Of a stretch of DNA of 64,000 nt, positions 6,760-32,227 are shown piece by piece. Both the position numbers and the translations under genes were made by a program. The notes under the pieces were generated by a model. That model did not search any database and was not told the origin of the DNA. It saw only the letters and a program-made list of their open reading frames with translations. Numbering within the stretch: the stretch's first letter is position 1; every line of letters starts with the position of its first letter. Origin of the DNA: the human T2T-CHM13v2.0 reference genome, Homo sapiens; the NCBI RefSeq assembly GCF_009914755.1, contig NC_060933.1. One strand, written 5' to 3'.

Positions 6760-7765
<1,006 letters not shown>

Positions 7766-8029: not shown

Positions 8030-8150
8030 GGCTGGGCACAGTGGCTCACACCTATAATCCCAGCACTTTGGGAGGTCAAGGCTGGCAGATCATGAGGTCA
8101 AGAGATTGAAACCATCCTGGCCAACGTGGTGAAACCCTGTTTCTACTAAA
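8030..8150 (+). mobile_element. Alu left arm only
   Basis: ggctgggcacagtggctcacacc...ctactaaaa, then unrelated sequence. Confidence 0.85.
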
Positions 8151-8642
8151 AGTGGATTCTGTATTCCCTCAGCCAGAGACCTGTCAACTTAACCAGGACT
8201 CCATAGTGCCACTGGGAATTTTGGTTCATGAGAAGAGCTTATTTACTTCTAGCAGTGTCGCCATCAGCTAAAGATAAAACATGTTCTTGAAGGCAAAGCT
8301 CACACAATTTAATACTTTCCCACAACCCACTCCAATTGCCCATCAATTCTTTAGCCCCATAAAGCCCTTCCAGTTCTCCCTGAATGCTGCTCCAGGGTGG
8401 GTGCCGTCATAGGGGTCTTCTGGTCCCCTCTTAGATACTCATGTGCAGGTGGCCTGTCTGAGGAGGGCCTGAGTTGCTCAGTCTGTGCTGGAAGCTCCAC
8501 CTCAGGCCTCTGCTTATGGTCTTAGTTATTTGCTCTCACAAGCCTGTTCTTCTTGCTCATCAGACCTCCCGTGAAAAGCTCTGCTGAATGAGGCAGCACT
8601 TTGCTCTATTAAATGAGAATGTAAATGACAGCTACCTCATTA

Positions 8643-8798
<156 letters not shown>

Positions 8799-8971
8799 TC
8801 ATGCAGCTCAAGGTCATGATCTGAAATGAAACAAACAAAAGTCTATCCACAAATCTAAAGCCATCTTTTAGAATTTAACACTTTACTATTGTTACACATT
8901 GTATATAATCCTTATGTATAAATGTTGGTTGCACTTTTTGCTGTTTTACTTTAGGTTTTTCTCTTGCTGGT

Positions 8972-9660
<689 letters not shown>

Positions 9661-9944
9661 CTGGTAAAAGGTCATCATATTAGGTCATTTTCTTCTATGT
9701 CAGTATTCCTTCTATGTCAGTGGGAGATTTGCAATGCCTTTTCTTATTGGCAATATGTTGTGAGTATTTATCTTGACTTGGGCCATATTATCAACCTCTT
9801 ACTTCTTGGTATTTTCCTTCCCATTATCTCAACACTATGAACTCCTCCCGTATTCTGTATTGAAGGAAATTTATTTTTTTGTAGTCCAACTAACTTCCTT
9901 TATTTTTATTATGGTAAAATATACCTAAAATTTACCATTTTGAT

Positions 9945-10250
9945 TTTTTTTTTTTTGAGACGAGTCTTGCTTTGTCACCCAGGCTGGAGTATGGTGGCAT
10001 GATCATAGCTCACTGTAACCTCAAAAATGTCAAACTTCTGGACATAAGCAGTTTTCCCTGTCTCAGACCCCTGAGTATCTCGAACTATAGACATATGTCA
10101 CCACAGCCAGCTAAATTTTTTTTTTTTTTTTTTGTAGAGACAGGGTCTTGCTATGTTGCCTAGGCTGGTCTCAAACTCCTGACCAAAAGTAATCCTCCTG
10201 CCTAAGCCTCCCAAAGTGCTGGAATTACAAGTGCGAACCACTGGGTCAGC
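9945..10250 (-). mobile_element. AluJ-like
   Basis: PolyT followed by a diverged reverse Alu. Confidence 0.85.
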
Positions 10251-10254
10251 CTTT

Positions 10255-14877
<4,623 letters not shown>

Positions 14878-15858
14878 TCAGGCAGAACTATGAGGCCAAG
14901 AGTGCTCATGCGCACCAGGCTTTCTTTTTGGAATTCAAGGTGAGGCCTTTACCACCCGTGAGCTCAGAGGAGGGAAGACTGGGACCTGTCTGAAGGTCTG
15001 GAGGGAACTCCCAGTTGCACACTTGCCCCCACTGCCCCTTTCCTGGCATGGGGTGAGATCGGTCTACTTCAGCAACCAGTGCCTGCCCTTGATCCCTGCA
15101 GGAGCTGAAGGAGGTGAGCAAGGAGCAGCCCAGACTGGAGGCTGAGTACCCTGCCAACACCACCAAGAACTGTTAACCACATGTGCTACCCTGTGAGTGC
15201 TGGGGGCAGGAAAGGAGGCATGGCAGAGGGCTAGGGCTTGGCATGGGAGCAGGGGGCTTCATGTGCCCAACCCTGAATGCACAGCTTTCACTCTCTGCAG
15301 ATGACCACTCCAGGGTCAGGCTGACCCAGCTGGAGGGAGAGCCTCATTCTGACTACATCAATGCCAACTTGGTCCCAGTAAGGGCCACCGGTGAGGCTGT
15401 CCATGGGATCTGGGATCTGCTCGGGAGATGGGCTGGTTTGCAGGCCACACTTGCCTTCATTAGCTGTAACAGCTCTCTAGGAGATCACCAGCTTGGGCTT
15501 CATGAGCTCAATCCAGCAGGTGTCTAGCAAGGGTCTACTGTGTGCTGGGCTCTGTGCTGGGCCTGCAGGAGGCAGAGCTGTTAGCCACATTCCCCACCTT
15601 CAAAGGAGCATGTAGGCATGTGTGTGACATTCACCACACACTGTGACAAGGGCTGTAATAGAGGAAAAAACACTACTCAGGGCACATGGAGGAAGGGGAA
15701 ATTTCATCCACCTGAGGAATCAAGAAAGGCTTCCCAGAGGAGGGGACATTTGATTTATTGAAGGATGAGTAACATTTTGATAAGTGATGAAAGAGGGAAG
15801 GACATTCTGTTGACTGGAAGAAGCAGCCAGAGAACAGCCAGGCAGTAACGTTCAGGCA

Positions 15859-15867
15859 GTGTGTGAG

Positions 15868-15919
<52 letters not shown>
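15859..15919. repeat. (GT)n microsatellite
   Basis: Long near-perfect gt run. Confidence 0.95.
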
Positions 15920-15920
<1 letters not shown>

Positions 15921-16582
15921 TGGGGGGTGCGTAGGGGTGAGGGAGTGGGGAGGTGCTGGGTGGTGGGAGATGTAATGGGAAAGATAGCCTGGGGCTGAAT
16001 GGGCTGAATGAAGGAGGGCTTGATTGTTAGGCTGAGGGCTTTGGACTCTATTTGGTGGGCAATTGGGAGCCATAGAAGATTTTTGAGCATGGAAGAAACG
16101 CAGTTTGGTTTTAGGAAGGTAACTCTGGGTGGGTGAAGAGGGTGGCCTAGATGGGCTATTTAACTCATGTCAGTATCTTGTTTTCATTGGGGTTTTTCTT
16201 GTCCCTTTGGGGTGGGACAGGGACGGGGGTGATGTCTCTGAAGTCAGCCCTTCTGGTTTGCATTCTGGGTGCACACGTGTTCTTGTGTGTGCACACAGGT
16301 AGGTGTGTGCACAGCATCCTCACTCCTGGAGGTCAAATGTTGGAAATCTGCTGTGTGCTTGACACCAAGCATTGCCCGTTAACCATGTTCCTGATCTCTG
16401 CCTCCTACACCCCAGGGCTACACCCGCCCACCCACAGGAGTTCATTGCCTCTCAGGGGCCTCTCAAGAAAACACTGGAGAACTTCTGGCGGCTGGTGCGG
16501 GAGCAGCAGGTCCGCATCATCATCATGCCGACCATCAGCATGGAGAACGGGAGGGTGAGTGCGCCTTGCAGGCTCCTAGAAA

Positions 16583-16599
16583 GGCCACCAGGTGGCGCA
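16583..16599 (+). promoter_or_regulatory. CTCF consensus motif
   Basis: ggccaccaggtggcgca matches the CCACCAGGTGGCGC core. Confidence 0.6.
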
Positions 16600-19500
16600 C
16601 GTTCTCCTTGTGGGGATGGCCCCGTTGGCATCTTCCCGTGGGAAGGCGGGGCAGACTGGAGTGAGGCCAATCAGGCCTGGAGGGTAGTGGAACCACCTCC
16701 CACCCAGACCTGGGATGGGGAGGCAGTGGGAGGAAACAGGTATGTAAACTCCCAGCTTGGCTTTGTTTCTACGGGCTTCTTGCCCTGGGCAGAGAAGGCA
16801 TCAAGGGGTAGGGACTGCCCAGGGCCGGTGTCAAAGGTACCATCAGGGATCCTTCCTTTCGATAAGCCTGGCAGATGCAGGGCCCTAGGACATGCAGAGA
16901 GGCTGCCGAGTCTGTCCTCTTGCTGGAGCAGTGAGCCCAGGGCCGCTGGCCGCGGAATAAGGGCTGTTCTGTTTGGCACAGGAACCTTGTGGCTGACTCA
17001 GAATCCTGAGAGTCATGAGAGGTCTGAGGGCAAGGGTGCCGGAGCCCAGGCAAGGGAGAGCAGCTCCTGGAGGAGGAAGCCTTGGAGCTGGGTCATTACA
17101 GAGAGCAGAATCCCAGCAGGGTGGCAGGGACCAGAAAGGTGGGCAGGGAGGGGTGGGACTGAGTAAAGCAGGGGGCGGCAGTGATAGGGCTGGGCCCACA
17201 GCTGCCCTTCCCCTCTCCAACCTTCTGGTCCCAGGTGCTGTGTGAGCATTACTGGCTGACCGACTCTACCCCGGACACCCATGGTCACATCACCATCCAC
17301 CTCCTAGCTGAGGAGCCTGAGGATGAGTGGACCAAGCGGGAATTCCAGCTGCAGCACGTGCGTGCCCCAAGGATGAGGGGATGGGACAGGCATTAGAGCT
17401 GAGACCCCTGAGAAGGTTGCCTCACTTCCTGGGTCCCTGGAGCCCTCTCTTTCGGAGGACCACAAGTACTCAGTCACCACCCAGGGAAGAGTGTGTTAGG
17501 GAAGGGGTAGAGAGGCACAGAGAAGATTAAGGGTTTATCTGAGGCTGCACAGTGAGGGAAAGGAAGAACAGGAGAGACATGATGGTTCCTGACCTCCCCC
17601 ATGCCAGCTCAGGGCTCTTGCCTCACCCCATGCCCCCTGTGCCCATCTTCCTTCCCAGATTGTGCACCCCTGGGGCAGGAAAGCCAGAGACCCGAATCAC
17701 TTCTCTGCCCAGGCACCCTCTATATGCAGAGGTTACCCAGGAGGCTAGAGAAGGACCTGAGGGCTCAGGAAGCATCCTGATGGGGGAGACATAGCTGCCA
17801 CCCTCAAGGAACAGTTGGTCTGCATCATCCCTGCCCTTAGGCAGCTGGGGAAGAAAGTGTGAGATCTGGGCCATGGGAACCTGGAGTTAGGAAGATAAGG
17901 AGCAGCAGCAGGGCCCCTCTGCCCCCTTGTCCCCTTCCCACCCCCTTCTTAGGTTGTCCAGCAACATCAACGGAGGGTGGAGCAACTGCAGTTCACCACC
18001 TGATCCGACCACAGCATCCTTGAGGCTCCCAGCTCCCTGCTCGCCTTTATGGAGCTGGTACAGTAGCAGGCAAGGGCCACCCAGGGCGTGGGACCCATCC
18101 TGGTGCACTGCAGGTGACAGCAGGTGAGTGCATAGGGTGGAGAGCCCCCTGCCTGGCCTGGGGGCATGGAGGGCTCTTGGACTGTGGGGAGAGCTGGGGA
18201 CATGGGCAGCCTCTTCACCCATTCAGCTCCTCAGGGGCTGTCCCTGCGGTGTGGGCATGGGCCGGACAGGCACCTTCGTGGCCCTGTCGAGGCTGCTGCA
18301 GCAGCTGGAGGAGGAGCAGATGGTAGACGTGTTCCATGCTGTGTATGCACTCCGGATGCACCAGCCCCTCATGATCCAGACCCTGGTGAGGGCCCTGCAG
18401 GCTGGGCTGGGCAGCTGGGACCCTGAAGGAGTGGGAGGGAGGTGGGTGGCCACAGGGCTACAGGAGGGACCAGGAAAGAGAGCTCATGGGGCACACAGAA
18501 GACCTTGGGGAGAGGGTTTCAGACACATCACCATCCTACCTGGGCTGTGCTTTCTATTCTGTGAAAGGGGAGGTGGGACAGGATCCTGTCAGCTTTGACA
18601 CCATGGGACGGTGGAGGGAAGGTTTCTCAGTGGCTCCCTCTGCCCTCCTACCTGATCCCTGCCTTGCTGGTCAGGGCCTGAAAAATCTCCCTGCAGGCCC
18701 CCCTCGCTCCTCGCTGAGCAGCCTGATGCCTTTTCCCCTGGCAGAGCCAGTACGTCTTCCTGCACAGCTGCCTACTGAACAAGATTCTGGAAGGACCCTT
18801 CAACATCTCTGAGTAAGTCCCAGCTTCCCTGTGCCTCCCACAGGCAGGCTCCCTGCTCCTGTTCGTGGGCAGAGCTGAGCGGACTAGAACGGGGAGCTGG
18901 GGAACCTTGAGTGCCTTCTCCCTCTCCAACCCCCCCACCAGGTCTTGGCCCATCTCTGTGACGGACCTCCCGCAGGCGTGTGCCAAGAGGGCAGCCAGTG
19001 CCAATGCTGGCTTCTTGAAGGAGTATGAGGTACACTTCAGGCCGGGAAGTGGGTGACAGCCAAGGGCAGCCTTCCCCTGCTGAGCCAACCCTGCAGTGAG
19101 ACCTCCCAGCCTCAGGGCACCCATCTCCTTCCCAGCTCTTGCTGCAGGCCATCAAGGACGAGGCTGGCTCTTCCGCACCCCCGCCTGGCTATGAGCAGGA
19201 CAGCCCCGTCTCCTGTGAGTCTCACTGTGGACCCTGTGGAGGGGCAGGGGGCCAGCGTGGGCTGGGGACCTCTGGCAGCTTCACCCTCACTGTCTTCCCT
19301 CAGATGACCGTTCTCAGGGGCAGTTTTCTCCGGTGGAGGAGAGCCCCCCTGACGACATGCCCGAAGCCTGGCTCTTCCCTGTGAGATGATGCTGGTTTTG
19401 CCACTGTTTCCTGCCCTCTCTGACCACCTGTACTTCCCGGGCTGGGGCTGCTGGGGGCTCCCAGAGTTGTGGACTGGGCAGGGGGCACCTTCAGTCTCTG

Positions 19501-20770
19501 GAAGCCAATGATCTGTGCTCTGCAGGGTGGGCCCTCTGGCCGTGATCATACGGTGCTGACTGGCCCCGCAGGGCCAAAGGAGCTCTGGGAGCTGGTGTGG
19601 CAGCACAGGGCTCATGTGCTTGTCTCTCTTTGCCCACCCAATGTCATGGAGAAGGTGACAGAGCAGAGGACAGAGGAAGGGAGGCTCAGGAGTTAGGGGT
19701 GAGGATGGAGGCGGGTAGTTTGTGGTGCTGTCTGTGACCAGGGCAGGGGCAGAGATCTCAGGAAGTTGACTGAGCAGCCCTAACTTGGTCCCAGCCATAG
19801 GAATTCTGGCCAACGGAGATGCAGCCCGTAGTCACAGACATGGTGACGGTGCACTGGGTGGCTGAGAGCAGCACAGCAGGCTGGTTCTGTACCCTCCTCA
19901 AGGTCACACATGTAGGTGCTGGGGCCACAGGGCATGGGGTGTTGCATGGGGAAGAGTCCTGTGTGGGCTTCCTCTGCCCTCTCCAGCACCAATGCTGATC
20001 ATGTCTTTGCCACAGGGGGAGAGCAGGAAGGAAAGGGAGGTGCAGAGACTGCAATTTCCACACCTGGAGCCTGGGCATGAGCTGCCCGCCACCACCCTGC
20101 TGCCCTTCCTGGCTGCTGTGGGCCAGTGCTGCTCTCGGGGCAACAACAAGAAGCCGGGCACACTGCTCAGCCACTCCAAGTGTTGTTGGACAATGGTCTT
20201 GGGGGAGTGGACAATGGTCTTGGGGGAGCGGACACTGGAAGCCCCTCCCTGCCCTTCTGGCATAGCCTCAGATCTCCCTGGGCCCTGCTTGGGTTATGGG
20301 TCAAAAGGACACAGTCTCACAATGCCCCTGTCTTCTCCACACCCTACCCTGTCCTCAGGAATATGGTGGGAATTTACCGCCTCCCTCCCTAGGTCCAGGC
20401 TGGCCGGCTGACCAAGTGTCCGGTGTCCCTTCTCAGTCCCTGCGCCCAGGTTGGGTTTTCCCACATCCGTGGACACCCCCGCCACACCCCCTTTAGGTAC
20501 CTCATCCACCTCTAGGTCAGTTGCAGCAAGGGTGCAACCCAGCTGGGCACCTTCCTGGCCATGGAGCAGCTGCTGCAGCAGGCAGGGTCTGAGTGCACCG
20601 TGGATATCTTTAACGTGGCCCTGCAGCAGTCTCAGGCCTGTGGCCTTATGACCCCAACACTGGTGAGAGGCGACCAGGGGCGACCGGGCTGGCGTGGGGG
20701 CTCAGCTGTGGGAAGGGGCGGGGGGATGAGGGAGCTTCTGCCCAGGCCTCTAGGCAGCACCACCTGGGTA

Positions 20771-20786
20771 GCCACCAGGTGGCGCT
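20771..20786 (+). promoter_or_regulatory. CTCF consensus motif
   Basis: gccaccaggtggcgct. Confidence 0.6.
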
Positions 20787-22948
20787 GTGGACCGCTGTGC
20801 GTTCTCCCAGATGGAGCCCTAGGGGTTGGGGGACACAAGGGAGCCTTTTTCTGTTAGATTGGGGCAGGCGGGGCGAGCCTCCTAACCCTATGTCCATCTC
20901 CAGAAGCAGTATGTCTACCTCTACAACTGTCTGAACAGCGCGCTGGCAGACGGGCTGCCCTGAGTCAGCACTGGTCACGGTGCAGGAGAGGTTTGTGCCC
21001 TGTGGGATGGGGACAGCATTCCTGACACATCCACGTGGGCCTGGGCTCCCTGGAAGGGCGGCCTCCACTGGGCCCTGTGCTGGGAAGGTACAGGGTCTTG
21101 GAATAAAGACCTGTGGCCAAGCCTGAAGCTCAGTGTGTTCTGTCTGTCCATCCTCAGGCCTGGGCCCAGCGTGTGGGTCTCGTGGGCAAACATGGAGCCG
21201 GGATGGAAGCTAGGACCTGGAGTCTGGTTGAACTTGGTGACCTATGGCCCCTATGCTGTTGGTTTTTCCCCTGAAGCAATCCTCTCCCTGCTAATCCTCC
21301 AGTTTCTAAATTTCCTCAGACTTTGGTCTCTCCACGTCTAGTTTCCTGTGGTGCTAAGCCCTGGATTCAGAATCACAGCTCCAAATTGTTTGTCCTCTGC
21401 CTCATCACCCTGTACGCACCATGCTGTATGCAGTAGGGTTTATCCTGTTTCCCACTTCCCTTCTCCTGCCATCCCCAGCCTTCTCTACCTGCCAGAGCCC
21501 CCAGGGGCCACCCTCAGCCCCCACCAGGATGGAGGTGCCAGAGCTACCCTGTTACTCGGAAGGCAGGTGCTGGAGGCACCCCTCAGGCGGAGGTGCCGAG
21601 TTTTCCCTGCTCCTTCTCTGTCTCCTTCTTCCTCCCCTCTACATAAGAGGTGGGGGAGAAAGCAGGGAAGGCATATGGAGAAAGGAAAAACCAGGAGGAG
21701 CAGCAGAGACCAGAAAAGAGGGTGGGGAGGCAGCTGTCTGTCCCACACACTGTAGGACTGCACTGCATACCATGTGCATGATTGCTGGTGGCCACATGAG
21801 CTCCTGCCTGCTTCCCTGGTCAGGCTGGGAGTTTCCAGGTGCAGTGCCTGATGCTGGACACTAACTGCCCCTGGTGGAAGGCCCTGGGAGGACACAGAGA
21901 AAGCCTGGAAAGATCAGAGCAAGAGTCCCTGAAATGGAGTCGGGTCTCCCCAAGGGGAAGCGGGGAGAGCTCTTTGGCCAACCTGAGTTCCTACTAAGGT
22001 GCAACGGGTCAGAAGTCAGGAGGGTCCTTCTCAGGCCTGGTTGAAGAAGGGTACAGAGGTCGTGCTGGCTGCTCAGCCGGGAGCTTTCCCAGAACGAGAC
22101 TAAAGCACGGTGCCCTCCCAGGAGGACTAAATGCCGGTGTCCTCCATATGCCATGTTTATCAGGAGCTGAGGGTGGGCCCCCTAATGACCCTCACAAAAG
22201 CAGGCTGGAGGCTCTGCTCTGAGCTGCCCAAGTCTGTCTCAAGCAGCTGCTGCTGAGGTTGCAACAGGGCTCAACCATGGCTTTTCCACTCTGGGAAAAT
22301 CTCACATTGGAGCAGCAGGAGCTGCAAATGAGATGGAGCCAAGGCTATGGTTGAGTGAAGGAAGTGCAGGCTGGCCTGTGGTAGCTTTCTGCCATAGGGC
22401 AAAGGTGGCTCTATCTGTGAGTCTTTCTGGTCATGTAGGCCCATCCTCTAGCCTTCTTAGGAGGCTCATCTTCTACTTTCAGCGCCATGGCACCAACGGG
22501 AGGCCTAGGGTCAGGGTCTGCTCATTTCTTGGTCCGGCTATGCAGCCCCTCTAGCCCTGGGAGGTTATCGGAGAGTGGAGAGGTGTTGATGAGAGGATTC
22601 TGGCATGTGGAAGGACAGGGTGGAAGAAATCCTGGATGCCTCTGAGGTCCCAGGTTTCTGGTATACCCTCTGGCTGGACCATGGGGAGACAGGGCAAAAA
22701 AGGAAGGAGGGGTGCCCACAGCCTGCTCTAGCTCTGCACTGGGGCTTGGCTCAGCATGGGAGAGACCAGAGACAGCAAGAGGCGGCGTGAAGGAAGCACA
22801 GCCAGCTCACTATGGTCTAAGGAGAGAACAGGGATTGGCCTCAGTTTTAACCACCGTGCCCTTTGCTCACCAGGGCTCTGGGGCCGGCCAGGTCAGCCAG
22901 TTGGTGGGATTCCAGCCTCAGGGTGGCCGAGCTGCAGGTGCAGCACCC

Positions 22949-22965
22949 GGCCTCCAGGTGGCGCC
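22949..22965 (+). promoter_or_regulatory. CTCF consensus motif
   Basis: ggcctccaggtggcgcc. Confidence 0.55.
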
Positions 22966-23774
22966 AATCTGCTTACTTTGAGGTGGCCTCTTGACAAGCA
23001 GCTGAGCTGCACGCAGTCCCTCAGCCTGCCGAGGTCCTGGGAGCAGGGATCAAGGTGGTCCCCGTAAACCTGACAGTAAACCTGACAGAGGCTGCAGGAG
23101 TGCATTTCCACCCAGGGTGCACTCAGCGAGTGGAACTCCACACCCGTTTCTTTGGAGTCAAGGCGCGACCTCTCAGGGAGGAGACTGCTCCTGGTTGCCC
23201 ACTGCCGGGTCATCCCAGCTTGCAGTGGAACCCTCCGCAGCCTGGCCTCTTCCAGGGTAGCCCCTCACTCCCCTCTCTCTTGTCCTAGGATAAGGCCGAG
23301 GAAGGCTGACGAGTTCCAGCTCTGGGGATGCCCTATCAGCTGTGTCACCTTGAACAAATCATTTCTCCTCTTGGGTCTCTGTTTCCTCCAGTGTGAAACG
23401 TGGTGAAGGCATGAGGGGCTATGGGAGCCCCAAGGCCTCTTTCAGAGATCTCCTCTGGGTCCCATGTGACCCCGTGGCTATCCCCAAAGGCAAGAGGGTC
23501 CCCAGCCCTGCAGCCAAGGCCCTGGGACACCCTTTCTAAACAAGTGCAGGTCTCTGACGGGCTGAGCTTTGCTCGCTTGGGTTTCTTTGCTTTTTTCCTT
23601 TTTTTATCTTTCCTGAATGAAATTCCTGCCAGCTCCGAAGGAAGGAGGGAAGGGAGCTAGCCGCAGCGTAGAAAGTTTCCTTGACTCCTCCTCCGGCTGG
23701 GTCTCCCTCCCTTGCCAAGCCCAGCCTGTGAAACTGAATAACGAAGATCACTCAACAAAGCCTGCTCCTCTCTG

Positions 23775-24145
23775 ACTGCACCGTCCCGCCGCCGACGCCC
23801 AGTAGAGCCCCCGGGGCGGTCCCCACCGACGGCGCAGCCCGCCGGGACCGGGAGAAAGCAGCTGCGGACACCGCGCCCGTGCGTCTGCGCGCCTGGCCGC
23901 CAGGTGACCCAGCAGCCCGGCCGCCGAGATGCCCAGCCCGCCCAGGCTCCGGGCGCTGTGACTTCGCGCCGCTGTGTGCGCCTCCCCGAGCGCCGGCTGC
24001 GCCCCCCAGCCCGGCCCGGGGCCTACCGCCTGCCCGGCCCCCTGCCACTGCCAGGAGGACGGCATCATGCTGTCTGCCGACTGCTCTTGAGCTTGGGCTG
24101 TCCGCCATACCGGGGGACCTGGATCCCCTGACGGCTTACCTGTGA
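23775..24145 (+). promoter_or_regulatory. CpG island / LGR6-derived promoter
   Basis: Very high GC and CpG density, GC box ggggcgg near 23813, directly upstream of and overlapping the LGR6-like exon 1. Confidence 0.8.
23929..24141 (+). pseudogene. LGR6: Disabled duplicate of LGR6 coding exon 1 (signal peptide and LRRNT)
   Basis: ATG 23929 reads MPSPPRLRAL* (TGA 23959-61 where LGR6 has Trp as recalled), then [29 protein letters not shown], a +1 T near 24087, then ELGLSAIPGDLDPLTAYL; donor GTGAGT intact at 24142. No further LGR6 exons recognised. Symbol is the parent gene. Confidence 0.9.
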
Positions 24146-26469
24146 GTACTGCCCGCCTGTCTCCACCTGGTACTGCGGGCTGCTGGCTTGCACCCAGTCC
24201 TGGCCTCAGCAGGACACCTGCTTGCTTGGTGCCCTGGGGCGTGGGCATCCCGGAGAGGGTTCACCCCCTTCCAAGTTGACCGTTGCGGGACTGGGGAGGG
24301 GAGAAGAGTCTGAGACTAAATATCAGGCGAGCAGGGAGACCAGGCTTCCCTGACTTGGCTTCCCCATTGGCCTCCGTGCTTGTGGGCTGACTGCGGGAGC
24401 CCAGGTTTGGCAAGGTGGGTTCTGGACCCTAAGCGGGAGGGCGCGGGGCTGGCTCCCCCATCTCCTGTTGCTGCATTCTCTTCCAGCAGAGCAGTGCCCA
24501 GGATGGTGGCTGAGGGTAAAGCTGACAGAACTGGAGGTGGAGGTGAGGGGAGCGTGCCCCAGTGGGGTGGAAATAATGTCTGTTCTTCTGCCATGGTGAG
24601 GACAACAGGGCTGTCACACTGAGGCTGGGTGGCCTTCTTTGGGGGGGGGTCCCAGAAGCTGGGAGGGGGGCCTTATCCACTCTTGTCTCCTCAGAAAGGG
24701 ACTCTGCCAGCACCATCTCCCTTTACTGGGGCCTCCCGGCTCCCCCAGGGGCCTCCCTAAAGTCATGTCCCAAGAGGCTGTGTTGGAGACACTAATTTGT
24801 GGGCAGGCGCGGAGGCTGAAAAGCAGAGAACCATTTTTAGCGTCTGAGTTGGGGTGAGATGGCCCGTGAAGGGGACCCTATTGGGGGCAGCTGTCCTGTC
24901 CGTCTGGCTCACAGGAGCTTCCCCTCAGAGCTGGAGGGCTGGGGGCTCTCGCTGCTTACCACATGGGCAGGAGGAGGGTGAGAGAGCACATTCCAGGCCA
25001 CCTACCCGCACCCCCAGCCCCGCTCTGGGGAAAGGAGACCTCCTCCAGCCCAGCTCTGCAGGCTCCATCAACTTCCTCAGAGGAGCTGGGAGCAGGTGGG
25101 AAAGCCTGGGGCCTTCTGCTGAGGGCTAGGATCCCAGAGCTCCTTCTGGCCTGAGAGAGACCCCTCATGGCTTCTAGCATGTGGGAGTTCTAGCACGTGG
25201 GAGCTTAGAGGAAGAGGACGCTGGGCGAATCTTTATAGGGGCCTAGCAAGAATTTGTGGAACTAAAAGGATGCTCAGTGTTGGCAGTGTCCTGGTGGGAG
25301 GCAGAGGGTCCCAGATGGCAACTCTTCATGGGGCTCCTCTCCAAATGTCCCTGTCCCTAGGTTGGGATGTCCTCCTCCACTCCAAAAGGCACAGGCTGTG
25401 GGCCAGGTAAGGGAGTGAGAAGAGAAAAATAATGCCCATCTTCTAGAAGGACAAATGGAATCCTTCACAGTGCAGCAGGTGACGGCGGAGGCAGTCATGG
25501 GAATAAAGCTACCAACTGCACAGAGGCTGGGTGCTCAGCATCTGGCAAAGCAGGGCAGGCTCCGGCCCCAGCCCACACCCAGGCCAGCCCTGCTTTCAGC
25601 AGTTTTCTATCCTGGGAGTATGTGACATTGGTTCATTGGAAGACAGGGTCCTGTGGCTAAAGAGTTTAGATATGACTTCTGTGGAGCCTTTCTCTGGGTG
25701 AGCTGAAGGAAGGTCCCTTGCCTGGGTTGAAGGGGCAGGGGAGATAAGGCCTTCCAGAGCTTCCTTTCCCAGTGTTAAGTCTTCCTAGACTGATTAATGA
25801 TCCTTTTTCTAGAAGGACCTGGGGGAGGAGGTACACTGTCACCTTTGGAATTCAAGCATCCTACCATCCATGCTGGCAGAAGATTTTCCCACTAACTTGT
25901 CACAATTCCCTGGGAGCTGTGAAGTCTGCATCTGGGTTCAGTGGAGGTGGGGTTTTCTGAGCTGGTCTGTGTCTTCCTGGGGATTGAGAAAGCCCCCCTC
26001 TCTCTCAAGACTCAGGGGATGCTTCTGAGAATGGCGGAGAGAAGAGAGGGAGTGGGAGCTAGAAAGAGTACGATGGGTCCTGAGGCAATGTGGGGAATTT
26101 AGCAGTGGGGTCTGGAATATTGGAAGGAGGTAGCAGAGGACCGTGTTCCCTGCCCTGGGCTGGGGAGGGGTCCCATCAGGATGGTGCATGAGGGATATCT
26201 ACAGTTGTCCTGAGGGTGTCTCAGAGGAGGAATTTTCTTTCTTTGCCCTCTCTGGAGAACAGCTCTACCACAAAGGCACCTGAAGGTGGGGTTGAGGGCT
26301 GGCATGGAGAAGAGCCAGGGTGGGGAAGTCTTGGGGCTCCTTTCTCTTTTCAGCGATGTTAGGAGGTGCCCACCTTGGCCCTGCCCCATGTATCCCAGCC
26401 CTTGCTGAGGACAGCACAGATTCGCATCTGATGATATAACCAGCAGTGCCTCTCTCTGGGCCACTCAAA

Positions 26470-26660
26470 CCTTGGTTCCTTCCTAGCTCTGCCACCTACT
26501 GAGAGTCACTCACTGAACACCTCTAAGCCTCAGGTTCTTGATGTGTACATGGAGAGGAGGAAGCATGTTGCTGAGAGGATTAAATGAGATAATATGTTCA
26601 GTGAAAGTCCCCACAGTGCCTGACACCCGAGGGTGACTCTGAAATGGTGGCTAGTATTAT
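26470..26660. mobile_element. MIR
   Basis: ctctgccacctact...tctaagcctcaggtt...gaggattaaatgagataat. Confidence 0.65.
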
Positions 26661-27543
26661 CATGCCTCCTGTGGGTGCTCCGTGGAGGTGGAGGTAAACT
26701 ACCAGGCCTCTCCACACCAGAGGGAAATTGAGCCTAGTGGGTGAGTGTAGAATTCAAGGGAATTGTTTGTGGCTGGAGGAAGAGAGCTGTGTGCTTGGGG
26801 AGGTGACTGTCAGGGCAACTCTTGATCAATACTTGGCTGGTTCTGGGGACTTGGAGCCCAACCAGTTGGTGCAAATTGGGGGTTGGGGATCGGGAGGGAA
26901 GGTGGGGACTTAGATCCTCCTGACACAGAGTTGAGAATGAAAAATGTTAAAACACTTGGATATGCAGGAAGTAGCAGGCCAGAGAGGACTCGAAGATCCT
27001 TAGAAGGAGCCATAGACGGAACCATAGGAGGCGCCCAGGAGCTATGGGCTCCAGAAGGTACCCGCAAGTCCTCTTGCACATTCCTTGACCTGGTCTCAAT
27101 AAAAATGACATCACATCTCTTCCCCCACTCCACGGCTGTGAGATTTTCTCTTTCTAGCCAATACCTTTCATGAAGTAGGTGCTTCCACCTCTCCATCTTT
27201 GTTCTAGGGAAGACCGGAAAGGCATCTTTATAGTCAACTGGTATTCTTTGCCTTGATACTCATGTCCAAAAACTATTACCACTTTTGGGCTCAATGCCAG
27301 GCCTGTTTGATCAAGGTTGGGAAGACACACTTCAGATACTCACAATCCTTCATATGTCTCTCTTTTTTCAACAGTTTCCTCCTAAACTGTGGTCTCAGCG
27401 AGGCTCATTGACACTCACCGGGGTTTCGACATTCTCCCTGGCTAGGGCCTGTTCTGGAAATAGACCAAGGGGGAGATGGAGCCCCTGGCCGTGGGACATC
27501 CAATCTGATGGTGATGAGAAGGCATGATGCCTCTTGTTCTATT

Positions 27544-27678
27544 CTTTTTTGTTTCTTCTTTTTTTTTAAATAAAAAAGACCAGTAATGTGCTGACTTCAT
27601 AACAAGGTTTGAGGGAGGCACTTCTCACACGTGAGCATGAAAACCCAATCGTCACGCTTCTTAACTGCAAAAGGATCA
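27544..27678 (-). pseudogene. SNORD13: U13 (SNORD13) snoRNA retrocopy with polyA tail
   Basis: Reverse complement reads atccttttgcagttaagaagcgtgacgattgggttttcatgctcacgtgtgagaagtgcctccctcaaaccttgttatgaagtcagcacattac, U13-like; T-rich tail 27544-27567; perfect TSD cctcttgttctatt at 27530-27543 and 27679-27692. Symbol is the parent gene. Confidence 0.85.
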
Positions 27679-28234
27679 CCTCTTGTTCTATTGTATTGCA
27701 TGTACACATGATGCACAGACAGGAATACACAGACAGCAAATAACTTGTTGGGCAGATAATCCCCGGAGTTGTTCCTGAGTAGAAAGATCTGGGTAGTTAC
27801 TCTGGGCCCCCAAGGCTGAGCAGTGTCAGTAAACAGATGGTGCCAGAAAAGGTATCTCACGCAGCTAGTTGTGAAAGACGTCAGGCTCATGCACTTGCAG
27901 TCACACCTAAGCACCCATTTTCATAGCCCACTGCCACCAGGGCTGAGGGAGGGGCCGCTACACCATGCAACCCCCACTTCAGACTGCTGTTTGCTTTCTT
28001 GGGAATTATAACTTTAAGATTGCCTGTGATAACTGATAACCACTGGACTTGTTTGAAAGGTTAGATGGTGTGTGCATGTGTGTCTGTATGTGCGTGTGTG
28101 TCTGTGTGTGTCTGCGTGTTTCTCTGTGTGTGTGTAGATACAGGGTAATTTGCAGGGGATGTCTACAGCCAAAATGATGGAGGCAGGATGCTGGAGGCAG
28201 AGAGTAAGGGGTTGTGGCATTTGCCACAACAAAG

Positions 28235-28430
28235 CAGAGTTCAAACTATCACTTACTAGCTATGTAACCCCCAGCCAGTTGATTAGCCCTTCTGTGACTT
28301 AGTTTCCTCACCTGTAAACAGGGTTAAGATCTACCTCATAGGGTTGTTGTGTGGATTCACTTAGATGATGTTTGCAAAGGGTTTGGCATAATGTCTGGTA
28401 CATGGGAAGAGCTCAATAAATGTTAGCCAG
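28235..28430. mobile_element. MIR
   Basis: cacttactagctatgtaacc...agtttcctcacctgtaaa...gctcaataaatgttagc. Confidence 0.7.
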
Positions 28431-29719
28431 TGCTGTTATTAGGATAACCAGGGCGAAGAAATGTCAGTCATGGAAGTCTTCCTGGAGGAGGAAGTCCTGG
28501 AGCTAGCATGGGAGGGAGGGAAGCAGGCCTATTCTATGAAAGGTGTAGGATAGGTGTATGTGTAGTTGCGGGCTGTGAGAGGTGCAAGAAGCTGCGAAGA
28601 AGATGGAATGAGCTCTGCTGGGAACCCAGAGTAATTTTAGGGTTTTTTTTTTTTGTTTTTTTTTTTTTTTAGAATACAGTCTGAAAAACCAGGGAGGGGA
28701 GGGGAGCACCTGATGGAAGACGCCAGCGTGCTCCCTTACATGGTCTAGACGGGCCCCTGCAGGGGCTACAGATGAGGAGGCAGAGAAACAGGCGGCCTTA
28801 ACAGGGGAGAGCCAGCCTTGGAGAGGATGTATTGTGAATTGGGGGTGGGGGTGCCAACGTGCCAGGTCTCATTTCTCACTTCCAAGGCCACCCTTCCCTG
28901 GCCCAGTCTTAGTCGCCCTTTCTAATAGATTCTAAGAGTTTGACTCCTCCTTCCGGAAACTTGGGGTTTGTGAGTTCTAATCTTCAGTCTCTCAGTTGCT
29001 ATGAGACCCTGTGCAAGTCCCAAAACTTCCCTGGACCTCAATGTCCAGAGAAGCCATGTTTTGGATGAAAAACTAGAAAGTGGGAGAGGCAGGGCGCAAT
29101 CCTCTTTGAGTCTCCTGCTCCTGGTGTGGGACAGAGAAAGCTCCCGGGGAGAGCTGCTCAGCTGCAGGCAGTGAGGGAAGGGAAGGAGGGAAGGGGAGGA
29201 CCCAGGCAGCATCCAGACCAGGGTGGGGAAGAGAACTTATTCTTAAGCAACTTATTCTTAAGCAGCTTCCTGTTCTCTTAGCCTTGAACTTGAAGCCAGG
29301 AATAGGGACAGGGATAGAAGAGCCAAGGCTTGGAGCCGCTGGCCTATGCAGATGCACTTGCTTGTCCAGCAACAGTTGGACAGGGCCTGGCCTGGGCAAT
29401 GTGCTCCGGGGTGCATGGAAAATGTGGTCATTCTTTGTCCGGGGGATTCTTCTTATTCCCTCCCATTTCTCTTTACAGAGAATTTTACACTTCCTTGCAG
29501 ACACTGAATTATTGTGTTAAATTATTATAACTTAATAGCTTGTGAAATATACAAACAACAAGATTATGCCGACATGGCTGTTAGAAGACAAGACAAATTA
29601 GCAGACTCATGCTCATTTCTGTCATTGAACAATTCGTCTCATTCCTTCCTCAAGGCGCTGCCGTTTTCCTGCTCTCCGTCCGTGGGGGTGTTTGTTTACA
29701 CATCTCTCGCAAGAAAAGC

Positions 29720-29860
29720 GCTTCTCTCTGGCTTCCCTCTGCCTCCCCCCCTCCTTCCTGCCCTCTCCCCTGCCTTCCCTTCCTCCTTCCTTCTCTCCCT
29801 CCCTCCTTTTCTCCCCGTTCCTTTCTTCCCTTCTCTCTGTCCTTCCCCCTTCCTTCCTTT
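29720..29860. repeat. CT-rich low-complexity polypyrimidine tract
   Basis: Almost only C and T over ~140 bp. Confidence 0.85.
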
Positions 29861-31641
29861 ACTGATGTAACAACCTTGGTGTGCCGTGGCTAAGCCACAC
29901 TCCACCCCTGACCTGCGGGGGATGAGTCAAACGGTCAGACTTGCCTGGGCTTGTTCCACGCTCCCCTGGCTAGACAGGCGTCTACACATTCTCAGTTAGG
30001 GGCTGGACAGGGGCAGCTGCTAGACAGGTCCTATTCTGGGCCTCTCTGAGAAAAAGTGTCCCTGAAAAGAAAGGGAGCTCCCACTTCCATGGACCCTTAG
30101 CCATGCCAAGGGGCAGTACCGGCTTTCTGCTGGTGCTGATGAGCTGTGGTGTGAACTCACGAAGGTCAGCTGATTCACGGGCCCTGGATCTCTGCTCTCC
30201 TTCCACTAAGTGGGACTCGGGCCAGCCTGCCATGAAGGAGGTAGCTGCTGCAGCTTTCAGGAAGGAACACCAGGTGTCAACCCCACCGGGTGGCCAACCC
30301 CACCTGGCTAGGACCCAGTCCCTGGTGGCTGCTCTCCCGAGAGGCGGGCAGGGCTGGGGCTAGGGGCTGTCCAGGAGTGTTCTGGACTGTCCCTTCGCCA
30401 CAATTCCCACAGGCTGCTCAGGACCGAGGCTGAGACGGGCGACCAGGACGGGATTGTATGGCTGCAGGAGGCTACACAGTCCCAGGAGGCTGCTTCTAAG
30501 AGGCCCACGTGGCCTGCATGGGGATGCGCCTGGCTGTCCAGCATGTGGTCATTTGAATTGTACATGTTTCACTGGGATGCCTACAGAAAAGTAGACAGAA
30601 GATGTGGAAAAAGTTTTTGAAATGTTGCAAACTTAGCTACTTTTAAAATAAAAAAAATAGCTTTATAATTATAAAAGCAATATGTAAATCTTAAAATAAT
30701 TTGCTACATTCTAGTAAGCATCTTATGATCTCTATGTGCCCTATAACATTATGTTGTATAGTTTAAATATATACAATAAAATCTATTTTAAAAAATAGCA
30801 GGCAATTAAATCTCATTTTAAAAAGAGTCAGTTTAACTCCCTTCTAATTTCTACCCCTCGTTTTCCCTCTGTGTGTGTGTATGTGTGTATGTCATCTTCG
30901 TTAAATGGCTCAATGCATTCCGAATATTTTTTCCGTTGTCTTCATGATATATTCATGGGAAGGGGAGTATGTGGCTTATTGCTGTTAGTTTATCAATAGA
31001 GAATGCTGGCCAAATGTCTTTAAGAGTAATGACGATCTCAATAGCGGTAATGACAGCTACCACTTTCGGAGCTCCTCCTGCCTACCAGGCACCACTGGGG
31101 TCCCTCTCTGCAGCCCCTCACGCCATCCTCCTAGTCACTTTCTGAGGTGTGTGTGGTCATCCTCCCATTTGCAGGAGGGCTCTGAAGCACAGGAAGGTTC
31201 GATACTTACCCCATGGCCGGGATAAGATGGGCCAGGGCCAGGCTGTGAACTAAGGCAGAGAAGGGGCTCTCCAGCACCTTTCCTGAGCCCTTGCCTCCTC
31301 TGCCTCTGCCCCATGGCCATCTGGTGGGTGGACACAGCTAAGCCATGGCTAGAACCCAGCATTCTCATGACTGCTTTAACCATAGAAAATCACAAGTTGC
31401 AAGCAACGGGACACACATTTACTTGTCTACATTAGCACTTGTGATGAAGATAATTCATGCTATTTTTTTCCCCATTCGGAACGTACCTGTCCTTAGAATA
31501 GTTAGAGAAGTTTTATGAGGATTGTGTAACTAGCATTAACTTAGGTCACCTAATTCTTGATCAACCAAATCGCAGGTCAAACAAAGGAGGCCTATGCCTT
31601 CATAGAAAGCATCAGTTAATGTCCATTTAAAAACTGATGCT

Positions 31642-32032: not shown

Positions 32033-32227
<195 letters not shown>

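What the first reader, a model, noticed from the sequence alone, without database searches (positions are those of the whole stretch)
18257..20963. Hidden spliced ~346-aa ORF: the PTP D2 half of the pseudogene is still open while D1 is destroyed
Seen: the D1 exons carry five disabling lesions (TAA in KNRY, 4-nt frameshift, TGA in WPD, TAG 18064, lost acceptor 18248-49). From ATG 18257 (ggcATGG, good Kozak), ten exons of 129+68+88+79+77+129+111+164+136+60 = 1041 nt splice in phase through GT/AG sites to the natural stop at 20961-63, with AATAAA at 21102. The only stop (TAG 19798-19800) is itself a usable acceptor 6 nt after the upstream AG, so it can be spliced out in frame. Known: D2 domains of receptor PTPs are usually catalytically dead but regulatory, and PTPRV/OST-PTP is considered lost in human. 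Inference: a soluble D2-only pseudophosphatase could be made, or the D2 half stayed under selection longer. Chance or inheritance from the parent locus is also possible, and some donors are weak (aa|gtgttg at 20180).
Basis: partly seen in the sequence, partly recalled or inferred. Interest (0 to 1): 0.8.

Follow-up and report, generated by a model that had tools for sequence, protein, structure and literature searches.

The report
Duplicated PTPRV pseudogene; ORF is relic
The 346-codon reading frame can be pieced together as described, but it sits in a partial duplicate of the already dead human PTPRV (OST-PTP) gene, needs two splicing choices that the known transcript does not make, and has drifted like neutral DNA, so it is most likely an ordinary pseudogene remnant.

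Summary
Ten GT/AG exons from ATG 18257 to TGA 20961 give 1041 nt, or 346 codons.

- **What the locus is.** Window 14875-29235 is a partial, intron-containing duplicate of the chr1 (1q32) PTPRV pseudogene locus, 92-96% identical. Both copies share the TGA in the D1 WPD loop, so the gene was probably dead before it was copied.
- **The frame is open only under a hypothetical isoform.** About 41 of 71 mammalian PTPRV models, including the primate ones, read EK-PQ-EFWP at the exon 6/7 junction. TAG 19798 is therefore a true Gln-to-stop mutation; chr1 keeps CAG.
- **A donor is weakened.** The donor at 20179 has lost its -1 G, which chr1 and an old chr16 retrocopy both keep. NR_015444.1 retains that intron.
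- **The curated transcript does not carry the ORF.** Six upstream ATGs come before 18257, and the frame stops after 191 codons.
- **Evolution looks neutral.** Exon divergence is 5.5%, against 5.5% expected. dN/dS is 0.63, against a neutral expectation of 0.61. About 0.8 new stops per lineage are expected and one is seen. The chr9 copy has as many amino-acid changes as chr1.

A weak, unresolved sparing of conserved D2 columns remains.

Verdict: known pseudogene, low interest.

The parts
14875..29235 (+). Segmental duplicate of chr1 201440726-201456827, the 3' part of the PTPRV pseudogene locus plus downstream DNA. It has no promoter, extracellular exons or transmembrane exon.
   Evidence: Own-genome DNA searches: 92-96% identity, introns included. 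Pairwise alignment of 14875-21400: 312 substitutions in 6475 aligned nt and 24 gap events.
14877..18256 (+). Juxtamembrane and D1 (catalytic PTP domain) exons: 14877-14939, 15102-15192, 15301-15378, 16416-16554, 17235-17357, 17953-18113, 18250-18256. Lesions are TAA 15174, a 4-nt deletion at 16421, TGA 18001 (WPD Trp, shared with chr1), TAG 18064, and acceptor AG>GG at 18248-49.
   Evidence: Read through in frame against chr1 and 71 orthologue models. Exon translations hit Pfam PF00102 at E 8e-11 and 4e-11.
18257..18259 (+). It is a Val-to-Met change inside the D1 P-loop (HCSAGVGRTG in orthologues, HCSVGMGRTG here). The chr1 copy and a colobus model share it.
   Evidence: In the Pfam match it sits at about profile position 180 of 234.
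18257..19029 (+). Tail of D1 (last ~55 residues of the domain) and the D1-D2 linker: exons 18257-18385, 18745-18812, 18942-19029.
   Evidence: Alignment to orthologues. Pfam match to profile 176-221.
19136..20963 (+). D2 pseudophosphatase domain: exons 19136-19214, 19304-19380, 19526-19654, 19795-19911, 20016-20179, 20527-20662, 20904-20963.
   Evidence: Alignment to PTPRV orthologues. The same domain in a macaque model hits PF00102 at E 5e-13. In a jaguar model it aligns end to end with solved PTP domains at E 2e-31, with the catalytic Cys and Arg replaced.
19798..19800 (+). TAG, a Gln-to-stop mutation in the ancestral Pro-Gln dipeptide at the start of exon 19795-19911. chr1 has CAG.
19793..19800 (+). 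Two tandem acceptors 6 nt apart (cag|CCATAG|G). NR_015444.1 uses the upstream one.
   Evidence: Orthologue gene models use both forms: about 41 of 71 carry the two residues and 27 of 71 lack them.
20179..20185 (+). Weakened donor CAA|gtgttg. The -1 G>A change is specific to chr9; chr1 and the chr16 retrocopy keep G.
   Evidence: NR_015444.1 keeps 20180-20526 inside its exon 20016-20662 (annotation supplied with the finding; translated).
20961..20963 (+). Ancestral stop codon TGA. The chr16 retrocopy stops at the same place; chr1 has a 1-nt insertion just before it.
21102..21107 (+). AATAAA poly(A) signal. The chr16 retrocopy conserves it and follows it with an A-rich remnant.

Best explanation
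The locus is a partial, intron-containing segmental duplicate of the PTPRV (OST-PTP) pseudogene on chr1. It was probably copied to chr9 after the parent gene had already taken a stop codon in the D1 WPD loop. Since then both copies appear to have drifted neutrally for about 4.5-5% pairwise divergence.

That is too little time to riddle 1 kb of coding sequence with lesions, so most of the inherited D2 frame is still readable. It has nonetheless taken one nonsense mutation (Gln>TAG at 19798) and one splice-weakening change (G>A at donor position -1, 20179).

The locus is transcribed as a non-coding RNA. In NR_015444.1 the frame from 18257 ends after 191 codons, far upstream of the last exon junction, and is preceded by six upstream ATGs. 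The 346-codon ORF exists only in a hypothetical isoform and has no function of its own.

- **Shown here:** the duplication, which lesions are shared and which are private, the ancestral splice pattern, and the neutral substitution statistics.
- **Inferred:** that no productive isoform is made or translated.
For: 1. **Duplication.** Window 14875-29235 matches chr1 201440726-201456827 at 92-96%, introns included.
2. **Probably dead before copying.** TGA 18001 at the WPD Trp is in both copies, while a colobus model has Trp.
3. **Private lesions on each copy.**
   - chr9: TAA 15174, 4-nt deletion, TAG 18064, acceptor loss, TAG 19798.
   - chr1: two D1 stops, a 2-nt deletion removing a donor, TAG in D2 exon 5, and a 1-nt insertion before the stop.
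4. **TAG 19798 is a mutated codon.** About 41 of 71 orthologue models carry two residues here, with Q at the second position in 35. These include macaque, colobus, lemur, loris, rabbit and rodents.
5. **Donor.** The chr16 processed retrocopy shows that the ancestor spliced exactly at 20179|20527 and 20662|20904 with G at -1. chr9 has A.
6. **Neutrality.**
   - Exons differ at 58 of 1047 sites (5.5%) and introns at 78 of 1634 (4.8%).
   - A CpG-aware model fitted to 4676 non-exonic nt predicts 5.51% for these exons, a dN/dS (Nei-Gojobori method) of 0.61 (5-95% range 0.36-0.96), and 0.82 new stops per lineage. Observed values are 5.5%, 0.629 and 1.
7. **Polarised amino-acid changes.** The automatic count gives chr9 12 and chr1 16. 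With Old World monkey rows as tie-breakers, about 18-21 against 18-20.
8. **Transcript.** Six upstream ATGs, a 191-codon frame ending 758 nt before the last junction, and the retained intron adds stops.
9. **Database.** No predicted protein matched the chr9 form of exon 20016-20180. The best hit was 95% identical, in unnamed ORFs that carry the chr1 copy's residues at the differing positions.
Against: - **Lesions cluster in D1.** Four of the five chr9-private disabling lesions lie in the 666 nt before the ATG and one in the 1041-nt ORF. My binomial arithmetic gives P about 0.08, or about 0.17 if the donor change is counted.
- **No indel in the ORF.** No frameshifting indel has hit the chr9 ORF, although the intron rate predicts about 2 (18 frameshifting events in 4676 nt pairwise; Poisson P of none about 0.14). 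Many intron events are long repeat-associated gaps.
- **Conserved D2 columns are spared.** At D2 columns at least 90% conserved among 71 orthologue models, there are 5 non-synonymous differences between the copies against 9.7 expected (P 0.07). Variable columns have 21 against 13.2 expected (P 0.017). The test on how non-synonymous differences divide between conserved and variable columns gives P 0.014.
- **chr9-only changes at conserved columns.** These are 11 of 155 in D1 and 1 of 109 in D2 (Fisher P 0.017). A colobus model shows 29 of 147 against 7 of 101 (P 0.006).
- **Non-CpG differences in D2.** The rate is 1.6% at conserved columns and 4.9% at variable columns.
- **The downstream acceptor is plausible.** Gene models of other mammals use it in 27 of 71 cases, so skipping the TAG is mechanistically possible.
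- **D2-only models exist elsewhere.** NCBI models in macaque and jaguar predict D2-only proteins.
Confidence: 0.9

Rival explanations
1. A minor isoform uses the downstream tandem acceptor (19801) and still removes intron 20180-20526. It is translated from ATG 18257 into a soluble protein made of a D1 tail, a linker and a dead D2 domain, and this protein has a regulatory role.
For: - The frame exists, with all 18 GT/AG dinucleotides intact.
- ATG 18257 has a purine at -3 and G at +4.
- The form lacking the two residues occurs in 27 of 71 orthologue models.
- D2-only models are predicted in macaque and jaguar.
- D2 is a full-length PTP-like fold by sequence.
Against: - The curated transcript does neither splice.
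- The mutation that made the stop also turned the needed acceptor from CAG into TAG, while the upstream CAG is intact.
- The donor lacks both -1 G and +5 G.
- Six upstream ATGs come before 18257.
- The protein would begin with the last ~55 residues of a broken D1.
- The chr9 branch has as many replacements as the chr1 pseudogene, including at columns conserved in 54-68 of 66-70 orthologues.
- dN/dS is neutral.
Confidence: 0.03
2. After D1 lost activity in an ancestor of Old World monkeys and apes, the D2 half stayed under purifying selection for some time, at the parent locus and perhaps in both copies. That would be why D2 shows fewer lesions and fewer changes at conserved residues than D1.
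For: - P-loop changes A>V and V>M are shared with a colobus model, so D1 began to change before the ape/monkey split.
- At conserved columns where both human copies differ from the consensus, the counts are D1 11 of 155 and D2 3 of 109 (P 0.16).
- chr9-only changes: 11 of 155 against 1 of 109 (P 0.017). Colobus: 29 of 147 against 7 of 101 (P 0.006).
- D2 non-synonymous hits at conserved columns: 5 against 9.7 expected.
Against: - Total non-synonymous change in D2 is not reduced: 26 codons against 22.9 expected, with 11 synonymous against 10.3 expected.
- The skew comes as much from an excess at variable columns, which selection on D2 does not explain. Uneven mutability does explain it.
- D2 lies downstream of the shared TGA 18001, so it could not have been translated as part of the receptor in either copy.
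- Each copy has taken a nonsense mutation in D2.
- The colobus D1 rate (20%) is above any neutral expectation and may reflect a forced gene model.
- Several tests were run and none survives correction for that.
Confidence: 0.07
3. The locus matters as RNA. The transcribed pseudogene acts as a non-coding RNA or carries regulatory elements, and the ORF is irrelevant.
For: - RefSeq lists it as a transcribed pseudogene, with enhancer marks at 16391-17026 (annotation supplied with the finding).
- It appears in differential-expression gene lists (passages read in PMC5762631 and PMC7962432).
Against: Nothing here tests an RNA function. The sequence diverges from its paralogue at the neutral rate in exons and introns alike.
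Confidence: 0.1

Closest known systems
PTPRVP, the human PTPRV / OST-PTP (Esp) unitary pseudogene at 1q32
   Same: - 92-96% nucleotide identity over 14 kb, introns included.
- Same exon structure.
- Same TGA at the WPD Trp and same P-loop Val>Met.
- Human loss of this gene is in print. Cousin et al. 2004 was seen only as a citation in PMC3657394. Ptprv is listed among human unitary pseudogenes in PMC2864566 (passage read).
   Different: - The chr9 copy holds only the part from the juxtamembrane exon onward. It has no promoter, extracellular exons or transmembrane exon.
- It carries its own lesions: TAA 15174, 4-nt deletion, TAG 18064, acceptor loss, TAG 19798, donor -1 G>A.
- It lacks the chr1 copy's private lesions.
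Functional mammalian PTPRV (for example rabbit, tree shrew, rodent and lemur models of 1500-1750 residues)
   Same: Same D1-linker-D2 order. The D2 exons are 70-89% identical in protein. There is the same dead D2 active site and the same C-terminal end.
   Different: Those models are full receptors with fibronectin repeats and an intact HCSAGVGRTG and WPD. The chr9 copy is truncated and broken.
Membrane-distal D2 pseudophosphatase domains of tandem receptor PTPs (LAR, RPTP sigma, RPTP alpha, CD45)
   Same: The PTPRV D2 aligns over its whole length with these PTP domains (E 2e-31 to 1e-29 for a jaguar D2-only model). Like several D2 domains, it lacks catalytic residues.
   Different: The catalytic Cys is Ser, the P-loop Arg is Gln and the WPD Asp is absent. 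The KNRY region is not recognisable: the Pfam match covers profile positions 56-209 only. No D2 is known to me to act as a free-standing protein made from a pseudogene (recalled, not searched).
PTPRH (SAP-1), the gene named in the RefSeq description of LOC100128076
   Same: A related receptor PTP. A solved PTPRH domain is among the good sequence matches to the PTPRV D2 (7xc0, E 4e-29).
   Different: The locus has a second PTP-like domain and is a near-identical copy of the chr1 PTPRV pseudogene locus. Nearly all named database relatives are PTPRV and none is PTPRH. That PTPRH has a single PTP domain is recalled.

Membership tests
Unprocessed (duplicated) pseudogene of PTPRV | Collinear similarity to the parent locus, introns and flanks included | tested here: met
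   92-96% identity from 14875 to 29235 with chr1 201440726-201456827. Intron divergence is 4.8%.
Unprocessed (duplicated) pseudogene of PTPRV | Nearest protein relatives are PTPRV, with the D1-linker-D2 order | tested here: met
   88 and 76 database hits. Nearly all named ones are PTPRV or PTPRV-like and none is PTPRH. The conceptual translation aligns from the juxtamembrane region to the C-terminus.
Unprocessed (duplicated) pseudogene of PTPRV | Disabling lesions in the ancestral reading frame | tested here: met
   Three private stops, one shared stop, one 4-nt deletion and one lost acceptor in chr9.
Classical protein tyrosine phosphatase domain (Pfam PF00102) | Significant profile match | tested here: met
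   D1 exons match at E 3.8e-11 and 7.8e-11. D2 exons taken singly reach only E 0.15 or give nothing. The macaque D2 as a whole matches at E 5.2e-13. The spliced chr9 D2 was not scanned as one sequence.
Classical protein tyrosine phosphatase domain (Pfam PF00102) | Catalytic motifs HC(X5)R and WPD intact | tested here: not met
   In D1 the WPD Trp is TGA, and the exon junction inside the P-loop has lost its acceptor. D2 has Ser for Cys and no P-loop Arg or WPD Asp, as in all orthologues.
Protein-coding gene or translated ORF | Uninterrupted frame in a documented transcript | tested here: not met
   In NR_015444.1 the frame from 18257 stops at TAG 19798 after 191 codons, and the retained intron adds stops.
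Protein-coding gene or translated ORF | Purifying selection on the frame | tested here: not met
   dN/dS is 0.629 against a neutral expectation of 0.61. Exon divergence equals the neutral prediction. The chr9 branch has as many replacements as chr1. A weak skew at conserved D2 columns is unresolved.
Protein-coding gene or translated ORF | Evidence of translation (footprints, peptides) | not testable with these tools
   No expression, ribosome-profiling or proteomics data are on hand.
PTPRH pseudogene (the RefSeq description) | Derived from PTPRH rather than another receptor PTP gene | tested here: not met
   The parent is the chr1 PTPRV pseudogene locus, a D2 is present, and the named relatives are PTPRV.

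The most novel reading that the evidence does not exclude
PTPRV may have an old internal D2-only product, hinted at by D2-only gene models in jaguar and macaque. The hominoid copies would then have kept the most conserved C-terminal part of D2 under weak constraint after the receptor died. The chr9 copy would still make a little of this pseudophosphatase through the downstream tandem acceptor.
Probability: 0.04. Interest if true: 0.55.

Novelty: already known. Interest (0 to 1): 0.12.

Why it matters
If a free D2 pseudophosphatase were made, it would mean that a gene regarded as lost in humans, the mouse regulator of osteocalcin and insulin signalling, left a working fragment behind. The evidence points the other way. 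The frame is an inherited, slowly decaying remnant.

The case shows how a young duplicated pseudogene can display a long 'hidden' ORF once splice sites are chosen freely. The one practical outcome is an annotation point: LOC100128076 derives from PTPRV, not PTPRH.

Tried and rejected
- **Pfam on single D2 exons** gave nothing usable: one hit at E 0.15 and three exons with none. Exon-sized pieces are too short. I could not hand the spliced protein to Pfam, the structure predictor or the large searches, because only unspliced window sequence is accepted. The chr9 ORF itself was therefore neither scanned as a whole nor folded.
- **A 6-nt tandem duplication as the origin of ATG 18257** was considered and rejected. 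Orthologues and a colobus model show two point changes in the P-loop.
- **An extra TGA with a 2-nt frameshift near 18115 in chr9** was considered and rejected. The ancestral donor lies at 18113|18114, so that stretch is intron. The 2-nt difference is a deletion of the donor in chr1.
- **Gene conversion as the reason for the low divergence of exons 20016-20179 and 20527-20662 (3%)** was considered and rejected. The intron between them is at 4.3%.
- **Indel deficit in exons.** About 5.6 events are expected pairwise in the ORF from the intron rate, and 1 is seen. I do not treat this as evidence, because 7 of the 25 intron events are gaps of 16 nt or more.
- **Literature.**
  - 'PTPRVP': 12 papers matched and the 10 listed were read as titles and abstract openings only; none concerned the locus itself.
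  - 'LOC100128076': 4 papers. The two whose passages I read mention it only in a table or gene list.
  - 'hOST-PTP': 5 papers, which on the listing are osteocalcin and bone-metabolism articles. Only PMC3657394 was opened, and it cites Cousin et al. 2004.
  - 'PTP pseudogenes' with 'OST-PTP': none.
  - The primary paper by Cousin et al. 2004 and the PTP pseudogene survey by Andersen et al. 2004 are not in the library and were not read.

Full report
**1. The observation**

Its parts are:
- Exons 18257-18385, 18745-18812, 18942-19029, 19136-19214, 19304-19380, 19526-19654, 19801-19911, 20016-20179, 20527-20662 and 20904-20963.
- They add up to 1041 nt and are all bounded by AG and GT.
- They translate into 346 residues followed by TGA at 20961.
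- ATG 18257 sits in ggcATGG, and AATAAA is at 21102.
- The five D1 lesions are at the stated places: TAA 15174, a 4-nt deletion at 16421, TGA 18001, TAG 18064, and acceptor AG>GG at 18248-49.

The description is therefore accurate. What needs qualifying is 'still open'. With the exons of the curated transcript NR_015444.1, the frame from 18257 meets TAG 19798. The exon 20016-20662 also keeps the 347-nt intron, which brings further stops.

**2. What the locus is**

A search of the window's own genome shows the following:
- Window 14875-29235 is collinear with chr1 201440726-201456827 at 92-96% identity, introns and downstream DNA included.
- That chr1 place fits the human PTPRV (OST-PTP, Esp) unitary pseudogene. 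PMC2864566 lists Ptprv on chr1+ near 200.40-200.43 Mb of an older assembly (passage). PMC8799702 gives 1q32.1 (passage). Matching the coordinates across assemblies is my inference.
- The chr9 block begins at a juxtamembrane exon. It has no promoter, extracellular exons or transmembrane exon.
- Protein searches with D2 exons returned 88 and 76 proteins. Nearly all named ones are receptor-type tyrosine-protein phosphatase V or V-like, from many mammals, and none is PTPRH.
- The conceptual translation of all sixteen exons aligns from the juxtamembrane region through D1, the linker and D2 to the C-terminus of these orthologues.

The RefSeq description 'PTPRH pseudogene' therefore names the wrong parent.

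**3. Age and order of events**

- Both human copies carry TGA at the Trp of the D1 WPD loop, whereas a colobus model has Trp there.
- Both copies and the colobus model share the P-loop changes that turn HCSAGVGRTG into HCSVGMGRTG. The second of these changes created ATG 18257.
Interchromosomal gene conversion of the TGA cannot be excluded.
- Non-exonic divergence between the copies is 207 of 4676 sites, or 4.4%. From recalled primate divergences, this suggests a duplication in an early ape ancestor, after the split from Old World monkeys. This is an inference.
- After the copy, each paralogue collected its own lesions:
  - chr9: TAA 15174, the 4-nt deletion, TAG 18064, the lost acceptor, and TAG 19798.
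  - chr1: two D1 stops, a 2-nt deletion that removes a donor, His>Pro in the HC motif, TAG in D2 exon 5, and a 1-nt insertion two codons before the stop.

**4. The stop at 19798**

- At the exon 6/7 junction the orthologues read EK-PQ-EFWP.
- About 41 of 71 full-length models carry two residues there, with Q at the second position in 35. These include macaque, colobus, mouse lemur, slow loris, rabbit, tree shrew and rodents.
- chr1 has CCA CAG and chr9 has CCA TAG. The TAG is therefore a Gln-to-stop mutation in the ancestral coding sequence.
Near-identical carnivore models occur in both forms. The two acceptors 6 nt apart thus look like an old tandem pair, and use of 19801 is mechanistically possible.
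- Against it, the upstream acceptor is an intact CAG and is the one used in NR_015444.1. The mutation that made the stop also changed the downstream acceptor from CAG to TAG. By recalled general knowledge of 3' splice-site choice, TAG is the weaker form.

**5. The donor at 20179**

- A 5'-truncated processed retrocopy of the PTPRV 3' end lies on chr16 (89223277-89223729, minus strand).
It ends with AATAAA followed by an A-rich remnant.
- It differs from chr9 at 35 of 276 coding sites and from chr1 at 33 of 276, while the two copies differ from each other at 9 of 276.
- It therefore serves as an outgroup and proves the ancestral splice pattern.
- It and chr1 both have G at donor position -1, while chr9 has A (CAA|gtgttg).
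- The chr9 donor now lacks both -1 G and +5 G. By recalled splice-site knowledge that combination is very poor, and it fits the intron retention in NR_015444.1.
- An unnamed monkey-like database ORF that is spliced across exons 6-7-8, with PQ present, also reads into this intron (P0095). The intron may have been inefficiently removed even before the change.

**6. Coding potential of the known transcript**

- In NR_015444.1, ATG 18257 is at position 465 and is preceded by six ATGs.
- The frame from it runs 191 codons to TAG 19798, which lies 758 nt upstream of the last exon junction. By recalled rules this is the layout expected to trigger nonsense-mediated decay.
- The longest ORF of the transcript is a 245-codon frame from an upstream ATG at 17323. 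It enters the same frame through cryptic splice sites and ends at the same TAG.
- A protein starting at 18257 would begin with only the last ~55 residues of D1 (Pfam profile positions 176-221 of 234), then the linker, then D2.

**7. Is D2 real, and what is it?**

- In orthologues D2 is a degenerate PTP domain.
- The macaque D2-only model matches PF00102 at E 5.2e-13 over profile positions 56-209.
- A jaguar D2-only model aligns over residues 9-266 with solved PTP domains (RPTP sigma, LAR; E about 2e-31). It has Ser in place of the catalytic Cys, Gln in place of the P-loop Arg, and no WPD Asp.

**8. Chance or selection?**

*Raw divergence between the two copies*

| Region | Differences | Rate |
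|---|---|---|
| ORF exons | 58 of 1047 | 5.5% |
| Introns between them | 78 of 1634 | 4.8% |
| D1 exons | 34 of 534 | 6.4% |

*Neutral model.* I fitted CpG-transition, other-transition and transversion rates to the 4676 non-exonic aligned sites of the same block. I then evolved the approximate ancestral coding sequence along two lineages.

| Quantity | Neutral prediction | Observed |
|---|---|---|
| Exon divergence | 5.51% | 5.5% |
| dN/dS (Nei-Gojobori method) | mean 0.61, 5-95% range 0.36-0.96 | 0.629 (18 synonymous and 38 non-synonymous differences) |
| New stops per lineage | 0.82 (P none 0.43, P one 0.37) | 1 in chr9 and 1 in chr1 |

*Polarised replacements.*
- With 71 orthologue rows, the automatic count is 12 chr9-derived, 16 chr1-derived, 8 ambiguous and 3 unclear.
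- Using the two Old World monkey rows as tie-breakers, my reading is about 18-21 for chr9 against 18-20 for chr1.
- The chr9 frame has therefore changed as fast as the acknowledged pseudogene. Residues conserved in 54-68 of 66-70 orthologues are among those changed.

*Lesion counts.*
- The total of chr9-private lesions is 5, or 6 with the donor change. This is close to what the rates predict for 1.7 kb of exons: about 1.4 stops (0.57 and 0.77 per lineage for the D1 side and the ORF), about 3 frameshifts and about 1.5 splice-dinucleotide hits. The frameshift and splice figures are my arithmetic.
- The placement is uneven, with 4 in 666 nt of D1 and 1 in 1041 nt of ORF. The binomial P is only about 0.08, and about 0.17 if the donor change is counted. 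chr1 shows 3 against 2.
- The chr16 fragment, at 12-13% divergence, still has all of its 95 codons open. Openness alone is therefore weak evidence.

**9. What speaks against pure neutrality**

Changes in D2 tend to avoid conserved columns:
- At columns at least 90% conserved among 71 models, the copies differ non-synonymously at 5 codons against 9.7 expected (P 0.07). At the other columns the count is 21 against 13.2 expected (P 0.017). The test on how non-synonymous differences divide between conserved and variable columns gives P 0.014.
- chr9-only changes at conserved columns are 11 of 155 in D1 against 1 of 109 in D2 (P 0.017).
- chr1-only changes are 9 of 155 against 2 of 109 (P 0.13).
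- Columns where both copies differ from the consensus number 11 of 155 against 3 of 109 (P 0.16).
- The colobus model has 29 of 147 against 7 of 101 (P 0.006).
- Non-CpG differences run at 1.6% in conserved D2 columns and 4.9% in variable ones, against 3.5% in introns.

I read this as more likely uneven mutability plus noise than selection, for these reasons:
- Total non-synonymous change in D2 is not reduced: 26 codons against 22.9 expected, with 11 synonymous against 10.3.
- Half of the skew is an excess at variable columns.
- The pattern is shared by the chr1 pseudogene.
- D2 lies behind the shared TGA, so it could not have been translated as part of the receptor.
- The colobus D1 rate is above any neutral expectation and may reflect a forced gene model.
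- Many tests were run.

The skew is not explained away, however. It is the only support for 'D2 stayed under selection longer'.

**10. Known or new**

- Human loss of PTPRV/OST-PTP is established. Cousin et al. 2004 was seen only as a citation. PMC2864566 lists the gene.
- LOC100128076 is an annotated transcribed pseudogene. In the two papers whose passages I read it appears only in a table or gene list (four papers in all).
- I found nothing in print on a D2-only product. The searches were 'PTPRVP', 'LOC100128076', 'OST-PTP' with 'pseudogene' and 'human', 'PTPRV' with 'pseudogene' and 'primates', 'hOST-PTP', and 'PTP pseudogenes' with 'OST-PTP'.
- The spliced chr9 protein could not be given to Pfam, to the fold predictor or to the large searches, so those checks rest on orthologues and on single exons.

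**11. Verdict**

The ORF is real as arithmetic. It is best explained as the inherited, not yet shredded D2 frame of a young partial duplicate of a dead gene. It carries one true nonsense mutation and one weakened donor, and it evolves at the neutral rate. My confidence in this reading is about 0.9. Interest is low.

Noticed in passing
G000 chr16 89223277-89223729, minus strand (locus L007, about 4270-4730): A 5'-truncated processed retrocopy of the PTPRV 3' end. It holds part of exon 20016-20179, the last two coding exons and the 3'UTR, with AATAAA and an A-rich remnant. It is 12-13% diverged from both human copies, and its 95 codons are still open. An unnamed 312-residue database ORF (P0002) runs through it.
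   Followed up: partly
window 6768-14873 and 29262-33000: The PTPRV block is embedded in other duplications. Window 8143-14873 is an inverted 96% copy of chr9 104363742-104370535, about 80 kb downstream, and ends two bases before the PTPRV block starts. Window 29262-33000 matches chr10 132029190-132033473 at 86-95%. The region looks like a mosaic of segmental duplications.
   Followed up: no
window 15316-21121 (LOC100128076): RefSeq describes the locus as a PTPRH pseudogene. The parent is the chr1 PTPRV pseudogene locus, and the named protein relatives are PTPRV, not PTPRH.
   Followed up: yes
window 23958-24141 and 27573-27676: By the supplied annotation, the first exon of LINC00475 and the U13 snoRNA copy lie inside the block duplicated from chr1. 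Both probably have counterparts downstream of the chr1 PTPRV pseudogene.
   Followed up: no
proteins P0070, P0073, P0092 (Macaca fascicularis) and P0060-P0062 (Panthera onca): NCBI gene models predict short D2-only PTPRV-like proteins of 159-273 residues. The jaguar ones start at a Met in the D1-D2 linker. Whether they reflect an internal start site or broken and incomplete upstream exons is unknown.
   Followed up: partly
window 17323-19800 in NR_015444.1: The longest ORF of the curated transcript is a 245-codon frame from ATG 17323. It crosses D1 exons out of the native frame, re-enters the native frame through cryptic splice sites (donor at 18057, acceptor at 18235), and ends at TAG 19798.
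   Followed up: partly
window 20180-20526: The retained intron holds a direct 21-nt repeat (about 20186-20227). It accounts for one of two 21-nt length differences from chr1. Long repeat-linked gaps like this inflate the intron indel rate.
   Followed up: no
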